From: Octopus sinensis
Taxonomy: Eukaryota
Direction of reading: 5' to 3'
NCBI RefSeq assembly: GCF_006345805.1
Contig: NW_021829786.1
Span: 1 to 5,904 of the forward strand
Length of the DNA: 5,904 nt
Position numbers and translations under genes: made by a program. Position 1 is the first letter of the stretch. Each line of letters begins with the position of its first letter. The notes beneath the pieces are model-generated. The model was not told the origin of the DNA. It did no database searches and saw only the letters and a program-made list of their open reading frames with translations. Positions 435-5,458 of this stretch are shown here, one piece after another.

Positions 435-441
435 GTACAAA

Positions 442-666
442 GGCAGCAAGCTGGCAGAACCATTAGCACATTGAAAAAAATGCTTCCTGACACTTCATTT
501 ATCATTACGTTCTGAGTTCAAAATCCACTGAGGTCAACTTTGCTTTCATCCTCACGGGGTCGATAAATTAAGTACCAGTGAAATACTGGGGTCAGTGTAA
601 TCATCTAGTCCTCTCCCGCAAATTTCACACCTTGTGCCTTTAGTAGAAAGGATTATTATTATTATT
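442..666 (+). mobile_element. tRNA-derived SINE, family A, copy 1 (full length, (ATT)5 tail)
   Basis: A-box-like GCTGGCAGAA..TTAGC, B-box GAGTTCAAAATCC (514-526), central CTTTCATCCT..GGGGTCGATAAATTAAGTACCAG, and 3' CCTTGTGCC..AGTAGAAAGG followed by an ATT tail at 652-666. Three further copies are in the window. Confidence 0.9.
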
Positions 667-667
667 G

Positions 668-880
668 AAGTGGCAAGATGTTAGAATTGTTACCATGCCT
701 GGTGAACAACTGCACAGCCTTTTGTCTGCCCTTATGCTCTGAGTTCAAATTCCACCAAGGTCGACTTTGCCTTTCTTCCTTTCAGGGTCGATAAATTAAG
801 TACCAGTGAAACACTGGGGTCGATGTAATCAACTTGCCCCTTCCCCTGATATTACTGGCCTTGTGCCAATTTGAAATAAT
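668..880 (+). mobile_element. tRNA-derived SINE, family A, copy 2 (diverged head, variant 3' end)
   Basis: Starts directly after the ATT tail of copy 1. B-box GAGTTCAAATTCC at 741-753, same central block, 3' end GGCCTTGTGCCAATTTGAAAT followed by an (ATC)n tail. Confidence 0.88.
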
Positions 881-1035: not shown

Positions 1036-2754
1036 TTCAGTAGTTTTATTTTATAGATGCTTTCACTTTACAACCGAGCGCAGCTCTGTGTGCCTTGGGT
1101 ATGTGCTGTGATTGTTGTGATGCTCTGATGGTTATTGTATGGAAAGTGTTCTGCGTAGGATGGTTGCAGTGCCTAGTAGTGAAATTTTCTGTATGTTATT
1201 GTGTTTTTAAGTCCTGGTGTTTTTGTTATGTATTTATCTGAAATTTTTTATCATGCCTAATGCACCTACTATGATAGGAATTGTTTCTGTTTTCAGATTC
1301 CACATTCGAGTTACCTCTATTTCCAGGTCTTTGTATTTTGAAAGTTTTTCCATTTCTTTTAGAGACACGTTGTCATCTGCCGGTATTGATACATCAATTA
1401 GAAAGCATTTTTTTTCTTCATGATCTCTGACAACTATATCTGGTCTGTTGGCCTTAATTTCTCTATCTGTGTGTATCGCATATCCCAGAGTATGGTTGCT
1501 TTCTCGTTTTCTGTGACCTTTTCTGGTGTGTGCCTATACCATCTTTTTTCTGTGTTATTCCATAATGTTGGCATAGCTTCCAGTGTATGTAGGTTCCAAC
1601 TCTGTCATGGTCTGAATATATTCCTTCTTAGCCAGGACTGGGCAGCCAGAGATAATATGATTTATTGTTTCTTGTCCATCTCCACATATTCTGCAGTTAC
1701 TTGTAATATTTCTTTTCATTACATGTTTTTGGTAATTTCTGGTGGGGAGGCTTTGGTCTTGTGCTGCAATTAAAAATCCCTCTGTCTCTGCTTTGAGTCC
1801 TGAGCTTCTCAACCATTGGGGATTTTCTTTGTCTATTCTTTTGCGTTTAGTTTAGTGCAGTATTACCATGAAGGGGCTTTTCTTGCCATCGTTTTATCAT
1901 GGCTCGTTGCTGTTCTATTTTTAGTTTGGATTTCATTGTTTTAAGCTTTGTGTTTCTTCTCATCTTCTTCTTTTCTTTGTGTTTATTAGGTGGTATGATT
2001 TCTTGTTTGTATTTGTCAGCTTCCTTAAATACTGAGAACAGTTTTTTGTTTGCTCGTGTCTTGCTGCTATCTGGATCAGTTTTCCTTCCTTCTGAAGTAG
2101 GTATTTTTGCAGTCCTATGGTGGTTATTTATAGTAGTTTTCCAGCTGTATAAGGCCTCTACCACCTTCTATACGTTGTATATATAGTCTTTCTATGTCAG
2201 ATTTTGGGTGATGCATCCTAGATCCTGTCATTATTTTTCTTGTTTTCTATCTATTTGGACAGTTCATTTCGTGTCCAGTTAAGGATATTGTAGCTGTAAC
2301 TTATAACTGGGACAGCTAAAGTGTTGATACCTATTATCTTGTTTTTAGCATTGAGCTCTGTGTTTAGTATTGATCTAACTCGTCTATAATATTCTTTTTT
2401 TATTTTCTCTTTCATTTGTGTGTGTTGCGTCTTATCTAGTTCATGGATTCCTAAGTATTTGTAAGTTTGGCTTTGGTCTAATTCTTTTATTTCATTGGTT
2501 TTATCTAGTGTGATGTTGCTACTCTTAACTAGTTTTCCTCTTTTCATGGCTACTTTGGCGCATTTTTCTAATCCAAATTTCATATCTATTTCTTTGGTAA
2601 ATCCATGAACTGTCTTTAATAGTGTTTCCAGCTGTTTGTCATTTGCAGCGTATAGTTTTAGGTCATCCATATATAAAAGGTGGCTGATCGTTTTGCCGTA
2701 ACATTTATATCCGCATCCAGTTCTATTTAGCATATCAGATAGAGGTGACAGTGC

Positions 2755-2757: not shown

Positions 2758-2827
<70 letters not shown>
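2756..2827. repeat. Perfect (ATT)24 microsatellite
   Basis: 72 uninterrupted bp between the LINE 5' truncation point and SINE-A copy 3. Confidence 0.97.
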
Positions 2828-2829
<2 letters not shown>

Positions 2830-3041
2830 GGTGGTGAGCTGGCAGAAACATTAGCATGCTGGGCGAAATGCTTAGCACTATTTCATCTGTCTTTACATTC
2901 TGAGTTCAAATTCCACTGAGGTTGACTTTGCCTTTCATCCTTTCGGGGTAAATAAATTAAGTACCAGTTGCATACTGGGGTTGATGTAATCGACTGGGCC
3001 CCTCCCCCAAAGTTTTGGGCCTTTTGCCTATAGTAGAAAAG
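2830..3041 (+). mobile_element. tRNA-derived SINE, family A, copy 3 (full length, no tail)
   Basis: GGTGGTGAGCTGGCAGAAACATTAGC head, B-box at 2902-2914, central block, 3' GCCTATAGTAGAAAAG; colinear with copy 1. Confidence 0.9.
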
Positions 3042-3170
3042 TACATTCTGAGTTCAAAATCCGTCAGTTTCGGACCAATAAAATAAGTACCAGTAAGACA
3101 CTGGGGTCGATGTAATCAACTAGTCCCCTCCCCCACAATTAAGGCCTTGTGCCTTTCGTAGAAAGGATAT
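3042..3170 (+). mobile_element. SINE family A, copy 4 (5'-truncated, internally deleted)
   Basis: Begins TACATTCTGAGTTCAAAATCC (B-box only), lacks most of the GACTTTGCCTTTCATCC segment, and keeps AAGTACCAG..CTGGGGTCGATGTAATC and the 3' end GTAGAAAGGAT. Confidence 0.85.
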
Positions 3171-3178: not shown

Positions 3179-3458
3179 ATGCTCTGCGGTTGTTACCTCC
3201 ACACACACACAGTTACTTTACATAAAATAAAAAGTTAAACGAGCCAGAGTGTAAACGTGTCAAGGAAGGCAGAGCTGGAAAGGGGGGGGGGATCGGAGTG
3301 AGGGCTAATTGTGGTTGGAGATTGAAGATATCGGTTTTAATGGGTGATAAATATTAAGTGTTAACGAGGTTAGAAAATTACTATTTGTAAATCTCACGAG
3401 AGATATTTAGTAACAGTACTTTGGGAGTAAAGATTATTTGCCAACATAACAAGGCAGT

Positions 3459-3504
3459 TCTGGTGCTGATGAAGAGAAATAACCCAGAAATTGCGATACA
3501 CAGA
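3459..3504 (+). ncRNA. Type I hammerhead ribozyme-like motif (minimal, Penelope/retrozyme style)
   Basis: Stem I TCT(G)GTG 3459-3465 / CACAGA 3499-3504; core CTGATGA 3466-3472; A; stem II GAG-AAATAA-CCC; A; GAAA 3487-3490; near-palindromic stem III TTGCGA; cleavage triplet ATA ending at 3498. Confidence 0.62.
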
Positions 3505-3794
3505 TATTGTTTTGAGCTGAGTGGGCGTGCTAGATTCCTTTGTTTGAAAATATAAGGATACAGATCGTATTGTATAGCCAGCTGGAGATGATGTCTCCAG
3601 GTGGGGCTAAATTACAGCAACATTCATCCTAAACCAGGACTGCCATGTTATGTTGGCAAAAATTCATTAATCATTAATAAATCTGTAGAAGAAGAGACAA
3701 AGTCAGAGAGAACGTTTGTTCAAGCTTTCAAGCTTTAAACACTCAAATGAGAAAATCCTTAATCTTTATGATCAACCACACATAACGAGCACTG

Positions 3795-3953
3795 GTTGTT
3801 GTGGTTTAGCCCCAGGTCAGTCCTGATCCAGTAGACCTATGATCAAAGACGTTCCAGTTGTGACCATTATGTCTTTTATTCAGACATAGTGTATCTAGGA
3901 CTACATTATCTAATGTGTGCTTCCTTGTTGTTTAGCCCCAGGTCAGTTCTGAT
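3795..3953 (-). mobile_element. Two tandem 3'-end fragments of a third SINE-like repeat with (CAA)n-type tails
   Basis: GTTTAGCCCCAGGTCAGT(C/T)CTGAT at 3804-3827 and 3930-3953 (23/24 identical), each preceded on + by GTT repeats, i.e. a minus-strand ...GGGGCTAAAC(AAC)n end. The second copy is cut off by the TA tract. Confidence 0.55.
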
Positions 3954-3960
3954 ATATATA

Positions 3961-4787
3961 TATAGCGACGTCCGTACCCCCGTTGGCCTTATATGTAAGT
4001 ACATATTCCTATAAAATTTGGTACGACTCTACACACTGTCTCTCTCTCCTACATTTCTCTACTTTGATCTGTCCCCTTCTCTCTCTCTCTCTCTCTGTGT
4101 CTCTCTCTCTCTACTTCTCCTTTTCTCTTTTCTTGCCTCTGATTCTTTGGTCTACTCTCCCCCCACCCCACTCTCTCACATTTCTCTGTCTTTCTCACTT
4201 TGCACTCACTAGCCCTCCTTGGTACGCACTCTTTCTTCTCCCCTCTTTAATTCCTTCTTTCTTTCTCTTCCCCTCTTTGTTGCCTTCGTCCCTCTTTTTC
4301 TCTCTCTCTTTGTTTCCTTTGCCCCCTTTCTTTTCTCTCTCTTCCCTCACGTGACCGCTGGTCAAAATCAGCCTTTTGGCCTCCGACCACTGCCGTGAGA
4401 ACATCTGTTGTCTTCGTCTGCCGATAAAGGCATTTTTTCCAAATACGCCAGCTAAACTAAGTTGTACTGTCTATTAGTCGTAAGACACCTGCTGTTTTTG
4501 TCCTGCTTTTACCATTATTGTTTTTTGTATTTATATTCGTGTGGCATCGTACGTTTTTCTGTCCCTCTTTCGTATACATTCGATCCTTCTTCCAAGAAAT
4601 CTAATGCTCATAGCTTAGTTTTTCCTTGGGGCTGGCCGGATCGGAGTGATCTCAAGATTAATCAGCCGAAATTGCGAGGATGATCCGGTTCTTGACTGAA
4701 GACTGAAGGCTTCGAATGTCCCATCCGTGTTTTTTGTATCGTCTTCTAAATGTTTTACGTTCTTGTCCCAGTTTGTATTTTTCTACA
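3961..4787. mobile_element. Solo-LTR-like or non-autonomous element (~827 bp) inserted in (TA)n
   Basis: Sharp boundaries against TA tracts. Termini TATAG...CTACA are one substitution from TGTAG...CTACA. Non-coding, with an internal CT-rich tract and more CpG than the surroundings. Class is inferred. Confidence 0.5.
4036..4347. repeat. Polypyrimidine/(CT)n low-complexity tract
   Basis: CTCTCT runs and T/C-rich sequence read directly. Confidence 0.9.
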
Positions 4788-4818
4788 TAAAATAATATAT
4801 ATATATATATATATATAT

Positions 4819-5170
4819 GCTAATTCACTTATCTATATAAATGTGGATATGCTGATTAGCTTCTGTATGCCCCGATGTCGCCTGGTCGGAAATATGGATG
4901 GTAAGATTTCCTAGCATTTCTAGATTTATGTATCAGAATATTATGTTGATGAAGGAAATGAATCTATGATTCTAATCCAGAAACGTATGCGTCCATAATT
5001 GACCATGGACTGTTTGATTTCGTTATTTTTGCCATATAATGAGTTACAAATACTGTTGTCGATGGGGACATATTTTTGTAGTAAAAGAAATAACAGTCCT
5101 CTGGCTGCTATTTCTAATACTTTCGGTATGTGGTCTAGCAACTTGTTGCAAAGTCCCTCATTGTTATAAT
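4819..5170 (+). mobile_element. ~350-bp hammerhead-bearing segment between TA tracts (Penelope pseudo-LTR fragment or retrozyme-like monomer)
   Basis: Bounded by (TA)n at 4794-4818 and 5171-5189, non-coding, with a type I hammerhead fold at 4940-4999. Confidence 0.55.
4940..4999 (+). ncRNA. Type I hammerhead ribozyme-like motif with C3U core change
   Basis: Stem I ATTATG 4940-4945 / CATAAT 4994-4999 (6/6); core TTGATGA 4946-4952; A; stem II GGA-aat-GAATC-tat-GATTC-taa-TCC; A; GAAA 4980-4983; stem III CGTATGCG; canonical GTC cleavage triplet at 4991-4993. Confidence 0.75.
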
Positions 5171-5188
5171 TATATATATATATATATA

Positions 5189-5434
5189 TGTGGAGGCGCA
5201 ATGGCTCAGTTGTTAGGGCAGCGGTTTCGATTCCCAGATCGGGCGTTGTGTGTGTTTATTGAGCGAAAAACACCTAAAGCTCCACGAGGCTCCAGCAGGT
5301 GATCCCTGCTGTACTCCTTCACCACTCTTTCTCTCACTCTTTTTTCGTCATTCGAATCTAAAACAATGCGAACGCATTGTGACCAGCGATGTGTAACAAC
5401 ATCTGATGGTCTGGTCAGTCAAGTGATCACGTGA
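5189..5434 (+). mobile_element. tRNA-derived SINE, family B, copy 2 (two internal deletions), in (TA)n
   Basis: TGTGGAGGCGCAATGGCTCAGTTGTTAGGGCAGCGG head and B-box GTTTCGATTCC. The body matches the reverse complement of ~50-225, but the anticodon arm and the GCAGCTCAC..GGCGTCCC segment seen in copy 1 are absent. Ends GTGATCACGTGA followed by TA repeats. Confidence 0.85.
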
Positions 5435-5458
5435 TATATATATTTATATATATATATA

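What the first reader, a model, noticed from the sequence alone, without database searches (positions are those of the whole stretch)
3459..4999. Two unrelated type I hammerhead folds share a non-canonical A/A variant at the base of stem II
Seen: both motifs read (C/T)TGATGA-A-G...CC-A-GAAA, so an unpaired A flanks stem II on each side where a canonical hammerhead has the G10.1-C11.1 pair directly next to the core. Their stems I, II and III differ completely in sequence. Established: Penelope-like elements and metazoan retrozymes carry minimal type I hammerheads with palindromic stem III. Inference: the same deviation in two distinct elements is more likely a lineage-specific hammerhead subtype than decay, and strict descriptors would probably miss it. 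I cannot tell whether it has been described.
Basis: partly seen in the sequence, partly recalled or inferred. Interest (0 to 1): 0.8.

Follow-up and report, generated by a model that had tools for sequence, protein, structure and literature searches.

The report
Known hammerhead variant, abundant in retroelements
Both motifs are hammerhead-ribozyme-shaped sequences inside short mobile repeats; the extra unpaired base on each side of stem II recurs at thousands of sites in this genome but is already published from other organisms, and self-cleavage here is predicted, not tested.

Summary
Both folds are present at the stated coordinates (2 descriptor hits versus 0.008 per shuffle). Each lies in a multi-copy repeat unit (about 340 bp and 556 bp) with tandem, inverted and 5'-truncated copies and no linked ORF found. 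These units look like Penelope-derived retrozymes. The extra-base pair is not decay. Exact patterns give 2,351 (5' A) and 2,043 (5' C/G/T) genome matches versus 77 and 134 in controls, and stems covary across 35 family representatives. The rule is 5' A or C with 3' A or G, not strictly A/A. The first motif's family is mostly A/G (61 of 100), and the window copy is a truncated member of an A/A subfamily with a damaged stem II. The variant is not lineage-wide: bulge-only and canonical hammerheads coexist with it. It is also published. Cervera and de la Pena 2014 allow 'extra N10' and 'extra N11' and list an A/A rotifer example; Craig 2021 lists C/A and U/U forms. What may be new is the scale, the A/G form and a possible sheared-pair rule. 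Cleavage is untested.

The parts
3370..3464 (-). Inverted piece of the family-1 repeat unit, joined to the direct copy inside stem I of hammerhead 1
   Evidence: unit positions 172-268 match 3464-3370
3463..3672 (+). 5'-truncated direct copy of the family-1 unit (tandem units of 331-355 bp elsewhere in the genome)
3459..3504 (+). Hammerhead 1, type I fold, damaged copy: 3-bp stem I, A.C mismatch in stem II, extra A3473 and A3486, predicted cut after 3498
4822..5180 (+). 5'-truncated copy of the family-2 unit (about 556 bp), inserted in a (TA)n run; its 3' end is at one of the family's two fixed A+T-rich end points
4940..4999 (+). Hammerhead 2, type I fold, intact: 6-bp stem I, U3.G8, extra A4953 and A4979, 3-bp stem II plus internal loop and hairpin, near-palindromic helix III, predicted cut after 4993

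Best explanation
The two motifs are type I hammerhead folds with a 1x1 mismatch between the catalytic core and G10.1-C11.1, sitting in short repeats with no linked ORF found that are likely Penelope-derived retrozymes and would cut their tandem transcripts into unit-length RNAs, probably as dimers paired through the palindromic helix III. Shown: the folds, the repeat families, tandem and inverted copies, and covariation between families. Inferred: transcription of tandem copies, cleavage after 3498 and 4993, circular or multimeric templates, and copying into (TA)n by the RT/GIY-YIG protein of an autonomous Penelope-like element. Inferred from recalled RNA geometry: the extra pair (A.A, C.A, A.G) stacks as a further sheared pair under A9.G12. 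The window's motif 1 is likely weak or dead, while motif 2 matches its family.
For: Exact-pattern counts: 1132+1219 versus control 47+30 and 927+1116 versus 98+36. In 35 family representatives not filtered on stem I, stem I has >=4 bp in 21 (permuted mean 3.8, maximum 11 in 5000). The unconstrained third pair of stem II is Watson-Crick in 25 of 35, with all four types (permuted mean 9.3). Family 2 keeps A/A in 15 of 15 motifs recovered from 30 loci found with a query downstream of the cut; 7 of the 15 carry U3-A8, a compensatory core change. Tandem spacing is 331-355 bp in family 1 and 556 bp in family 2. Family-2 3' ends fall at two fixed points beside (TA)n in 29 of 30 loci, 5' ends are scattered, and some copies exceed one unit. 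The helix III palindromes self-pair at -10.1 and -12.2 kcal/mol. A retrozyme hammerhead with U.U at the base of helix II self-cleaves, better as a dimer (PMC7229834).
Against: No cleavage or expression data. Only 1 of 30 family-2 loci has a piece starting at the cut site. A family-1 subfamily with an A.C mismatch in a 3-bp stem II makes up 20 of 100 matches, so spreading may not need a good ribozyme. Fourteen of 35 representatives lack a 4-bp stem I (chance hits or decayed copies). The permutation null ignores relatedness, and GG..CC and the 3' purine were imposed by the search pattern. No autonomous element carrying this variant was found. Published minimal PLE hammerheads cleave poorly in vitro (PMC4209133).
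Confidence: 0.7

Rival explanations
1. The fold is kept as a structural signal (for example for recognition by the Penelope protein) and cleaves little or not at all; the mismatch at the base of stem II would be tolerated because catalysis no longer matters.
For: U3.G8 in several families; amplified family-1 subfamily with an A.C mismatch; no pile-up of copy ends at the cut site; low in vitro activity of minimal PLE hammerheads.
Against: Pair 15.2-16.2 and the palindrome are kept across families. A G8A change restoring U3-A8 is seen in 7 of 15 family-2 motifs. A mismatched axolotl relative cleaves.
Confidence: 0.15
2. The repeats are only truncated pseudo-LTR ends of autonomous Penelope-like elements whose ORFs I did not reach, rather than self-contained retrozyme units.
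For: Inverted 5' pieces and (TA)n targets are typical of autonomous PLEs (PMC8557442). One related family extends at least 800 bp upstream. The PLE protein queries were limited to those found in this genome.
Against: Head-to-tail arrays of complete 331-355 bp and 556-561 bp units. PLE protein hits in only 10 of 90 family-1/2 loci, all of them family 2; those placed are not continuous upstream in sense. The autonomous Neptune-type family has a canonical hammerhead.
Confidence: 0.13
3. The A/A is chance or mutational decay of canonical hammerheads.
For: CpG decay does turn the 3' G into A in part of family 1: outside the A/A subfamily, CA 20 versus TG 20.
Against: An extra base is present on both sides in all 100 listed family-1 matches by construction of the pattern, which has 490 matches versus 0 in the control, and in many other families.
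Confidence: 0.02

Closest known systems
PLE hammerhead variant of the Adineta vaga Athena element (Cervera and de la Pena 2014, PMC4209133, Figs S3 and S5B)
   Same: Type I, extra A after CUGAUGA and extra A before GAAA around G10.1-C11.1, short palindromic helix III (read from the PDF text, in which the GAAA column is detached). The paper's descriptor allows 'extra N10' and 'extra N11'.
   Different: There a 7-bp stem II in an RT-encoding element; here mostly a 3-bp stem II, often followed by an A-rich internal loop and a hairpin, in short units with no linked ORF, with C/A and A/G forms as well.
PLE-X1_cBra (Chara) and Hydra-clade PLE hammerheads (Craig et al. 2021, PMC8557442, File S2)
   Same: Cores written with one extra base on each side: C/A in PLE-X1_cBra, U/U in most Hydra elements.
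   Different: Autonomous elements; no A/A or A/G row in that table.
Metazoan non-LTR retrozymes, especially axolotl HHR_Amex2 (PMC7229834; PLE origin argued in bioRxiv 10.64898/2026.07.22.740005)
   Same: Non-coding tandem units with one type I hammerhead each; mismatch at the base of helix II; better cleavage as a dimer.
   Different: Published units are about 170-400 nt with a U.U mismatch and 4-bp helix II loop contacts; family 2 is about 556 bp, the mismatch is A/C with a purine, and circular RNA is not shown here.

Membership tests
Type I hammerhead ribozyme | Core CUGANGA ... GAAA ... UH | tested here: met
   motif 2 has U3 (U3.G8; U3-A8 in 7 of 15 family copies)
Type I hammerhead ribozyme | Three helices, open-ended helix I, covariation | tested here: met
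   across 35 representatives; the window's motif 1 is only partly paired
Type I hammerhead ribozyme (canonical) | R10.1-Y11.1 pair directly next to A9 and G12 | tested here: not met
   one extra base on each side, so a variant, not canonical
Type I hammerhead ribozyme | Match to an Rfam hammerhead model | tested here: not met
   no hammerhead family among the 10 matches at E<=10
Type I hammerhead ribozyme | Self-cleavage after H17 | not testable with these tools
   needs an in vitro assay
PLE hammerhead variants (Cervera and de la Pena 2014) | Extra N10, optional extra N11, G10.1-C11.1, palindromic helix III | tested here: met
PLE hammerhead variants (Cervera and de la Pena 2014) | Strict min-HHR descriptor (no loop 3, loop 2 of 3-10 nt) | tested here: not met
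   my re-coding of the descriptor hits neither window motif; intact relatives are hit once a loop 3 is allowed
Autonomous Penelope-like element | Hammerhead in a pseudo-LTR continuous with an RT/GIY-YIG ORF | tested here: not met
   no continuous ORF seen within 1.5-4 kb of family-1/2 copies; queries limited to PLE proteins found here
Non-LTR retrozyme | Short non-coding tandem units, one type I hammerhead per unit | tested here: met
   331-355 bp and 556 bp units; family 2 is longer than the published 170-400 nt
Non-LTR retrozyme | Accumulates as linear and circular unit-length RNA | not testable with these tools
   only contigs were available
Naiad PLE 'HHR_core' motifs (Craig 2021) | Lies in the 3' UTR of an N-terminal-EN Naiad ORF | tested here: not met
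   no such motif seen by eye in the three octopus Naiad 3' regions shown in supplement part 24; two motif searches of the supplement showed no hammerhead context; other Naiads were not read

The most novel reading that the evidence does not exclude
The extra pair follows a rule (A or C opposite A or G, no C/G seen) that fits a selected extra sheared pair under A9.G12. This would define an active structural subclass of hammerhead that marks a radiation of 20 or more families of 340-560-nt circular-RNA retrozymes in this genome, mobilised by Neptune-type elements. Such a subclass would be untested biochemically and invisible to Rfam.
Probability: 0.3. Interest if true: 0.55.

Novelty: new member of a known kind. 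Interest (0 to 1): 0.3.

Why it matters
It adds roughly 4,000 exact-pattern sites (a lower bound, taken as twice the forward-strand counts) and 20 or more natural families with which to test how far the hammerhead core tolerates a mismatch at the base of stem II. It also shows that Rfam misses both window motifs. It does not reveal a new ribozyme class or an undescribed core variant.

Tried and rejected
A loose genome pattern was uninformative: about 331,000 matches versus 205,000 in the control. The idea that this is the missing Naiad hammerhead found no support. Searches for an autonomous partner through GIY-YIG loci and long flanks found none; Pfam PF26215 is not in the library. No genomic footprint of cleavage was seen (1 of 30 loci). 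Sequencing runs: no RNA holder listed. Contigs of four runs from four coded organisms cover both units but cannot show ends or expression. One search listed no A>G at 3486 or 3475 at >=10%, unlike the genome count; depth falls steeply over that part, so I did not use it. For family 2 no other letter was listed at 4953 or 4979, but 22 rows were not shown. Two of my scans failed or were too noisy: a lazy pattern and the ORF listing. Earlier scan findings: nothing returned. Lunse et al. 2017 and Weinberg et al. 2015 are not held. The search on sheared-pair geometry gave listings only, so that argument is recalled.

Full report
Observation. Both motifs are in the sequence as described. Motif 1 spans 3459-3504 with extra A3473 and A3486 and a predicted cut after 3498. 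Motif 2 spans 4940-4999 with extra A4953 and A4979 and a predicted cut after 4993. A descriptor written after seeing them finds 2 sites in the window and 0.008 per dinucleotide shuffle (1000 shuffles). Rfam gives no hammerhead match at E<=10, and the monomer folding energies are ordinary, as expected for a weak helix III.

Host elements. G000 is a 2.72-Gb genome; from recall its repeats look like those of an octopus, which no call confirms. Each motif lies in a repeat (1896 and 943 first-look candidates, 40 scored each). Family 1 covers 3370-3672. It is an inverted piece (3370-3464) joined to a 5'-truncated direct copy, with the junction inside stem I. Elsewhere the unit occurs in tandem at 331-355 bp. 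Family 2 covers 4822-5180 between (TA)n runs, with a 556-bp unit. In 29 of 30 loci a piece ends at one of two A+T-rich points beside (TA)n, while 5' ends scatter and some copies exceed one unit. Partial tandems, inverted 5' pieces and (TA)n targets are typical of Penelope-like elements (PMC8557442, passages). PLE protein queries from this genome hit 10 of 90 family-1/2 loci, all family 2 and some the same place; those I placed are not continuous upstream in sense. The units therefore look non-autonomous, like non-LTR retrozymes.

The extra bases are a family feature. In family 2, all 15 motifs recovered from the 30 loci, whose query lay downstream of the cut, keep A/A. The other 16 loci were truncated or missed by my pattern. 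Seven motifs have U3.G8, seven have U3-A8 and one has another change. In family 1 an unbiased pattern gives 490 matches versus 0. My hand count of the first 100 gives 3' G in 61 and A in 39, with dinucleotides CG 35, CA 36, TG 21 and others 8. Twenty copies have A at the second stem II position, like the window, and 16 of these have CA (Fisher p 9e-6). The remaining CA 20 versus TG 20 fits CpG decay. So the main source was A/G, and the window copy belongs to an A/A subfamily with an A.C mismatch; its hammerhead fold scores +5.8 kcal/mol against -4.8 for an intact copy.

Genome-wide. The pattern with 5' A, GG..CC and a 3' purine gives 1132 forward and 1219 reverse matches versus 47 and 30 in the control. 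With 5' C/G/T it gives 927 and 1116 versus 98 and 36; in the first 100 rows I counted C 66, T 27, G 7, and no C/G. T is consistent with CpG decay, but native U-A pairs are not excluded. Reverse-strand matches are partly counted more than once. The ordinary 5'-bulge-only form is commoner: 5528 forward versus 141, with a slightly different pattern. A Neptune-type family (assigned by its Cys linker before a C-terminal GIY-YIG) shows a canonical U3-A8 hammerhead without extras in 15 of 30 GIY-YIG loci. The variant therefore marks some element lineages, not the host lineage.

Covariation. I took one natural copy per distinct sequence type fetched: 37 rows, of which 2 were dropped as second members of a family. 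Stem I has >=4 bp in 21 of 35 (permuted mean 3.8, maximum 11). The third pair of stem II, which the patterns left free, is Watson-Crick in 25 of 35, with G-C 6, A-U 10, C-G 4 and U-A 5 (permuted mean 9.3, reached in 0 of 5000 permutations). The extra pairs are A/A 20, C/A 11, T/A 2, A/G 1 and G/A 1. The families are related, so these permutations overstate significance, and 14 rows are chance hits or decayed copies.

Mechanism. Shown: the folds, families and covariation above. Inferred: tandem copies are transcribed, two hammerheads pair through their palindromic helix III (duplex -10.1 and -12.2 kcal/mol for intact copies, -5.9 for window motif 1) and cut out unit-length RNA, which an autonomous PLE protein copies into (TA)n. 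From recalled base-pair geometry, A.A, A.G and C.A can all form the sheared pair type of A9.G12, which would explain the observed rule; one search gave only listings on this point. Against activity: only 1 of 30 family-2 loci starts at the cut, the mismatched subfamily still spread, and minimal PLE hammerheads cleave poorly in vitro. No RNA evidence could be obtained.

Prior art. Cervera and de la Pena 2014 (PMC4209133; main text parts 1-2 of 4 and the whole supplementary PDF as text) report the conserved base between 9 and 10.1 and publish a descriptor with 'a possible extra N10' and 'a possible extra N11'. Their alignment and Fig. S5B show an Adineta vaga Athena hammerhead with A on both sides, and U/U examples from Hydra and Drosophila willistoni (read from extracted text, the figure itself not seen). 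Craig et al. 2021 (passages; supplement parts 1, 2 and 24 of 59 and two searches) list C/A in Chara PLE-X1 and U/U in Hydra-clade elements. Cervera and de la Pena 2020 (PMC7229834; passages and section 15) show that an axolotl retrozyme hammerhead with U.U at the base of helix II cleaves 22% as monomer and more as dimer. I also saw passages of PMC3088659, PMC6765202 and PMC6155905 and part 1 of 5 of bioRxiv 10.64898/2026.07.22.740005. In eight searches and these readings I saw no report of these families, of the A/G form or of a cleavage assay on an A/A hammerhead. Lunse et al. 2017 and Weinberg et al. 2015 were not held, and bioRxiv supplements are closed; any of these may cover it.

Verdict. 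The core variant is published, is broader than A/A and is not lineage-wide. These are new members of a known kind; interest 0.3.

Noticed in passing
window 1234-2750 (-): Broken non-LTR retrotransposon in several frames: Pfam RVT_1 (E 3.5e-8) and zf-RVT (E 3.6e-6).
   Followed up: partly
window 440-870 and 2813-3170: Four to five copies of a SINE-like repeat (families D7-D9 and D12); it resembles octopus SINEs from recall, not verified.
   Followed up: no
window 3956-4803: Young repeat of about 850 bp (copies 96-98% identical over the 231 bp searched, 2307 candidates), beside (TA)n, often with inverted partial copies. It has a long predicted hairpin near 4624-4686, no Rfam match and no PLE protein hit in 9 loci. 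It has PLE-like insertion structure without a recognisable hammerhead; unexplained.
   Followed up: partly
window 3799-3953: Short repeat present as six tandem copies of about 126 bp in L208.
   Followed up: no
window 5171-5458: Another dispersed repeat, shared with L011, L012 and L056.
   Followed up: no
L002 (G000:C30:2941232): 96-98% identical to window 3370-3672, including the inverted junction; probably a duplicate or allelic copy of the same insertion.
   Followed up: no
L138:4021-7385: A variant-hammerhead copy ends at about its predicted cut site and runs straight into a 5'-truncated Neptune-type ORF; a possible template jump onto a cleaved RNA end, seen once.
   Followed up: partly
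L097, L098 and 13 other GIY-YIG loci: Neptune-type PLE family with long open frames (780-883 aa) and a canonical U3-A8 hammerhead in the 3' region.
   Followed up: partly
window 5100-5120 and relatives (L068, L121, L136, L174, L186, L188): Many variant families share a short conserved motif about 150 nt downstream of the hammerhead, in some families as one arm of a hairpin; a possible protein-recognition signal.
   Followed up: no
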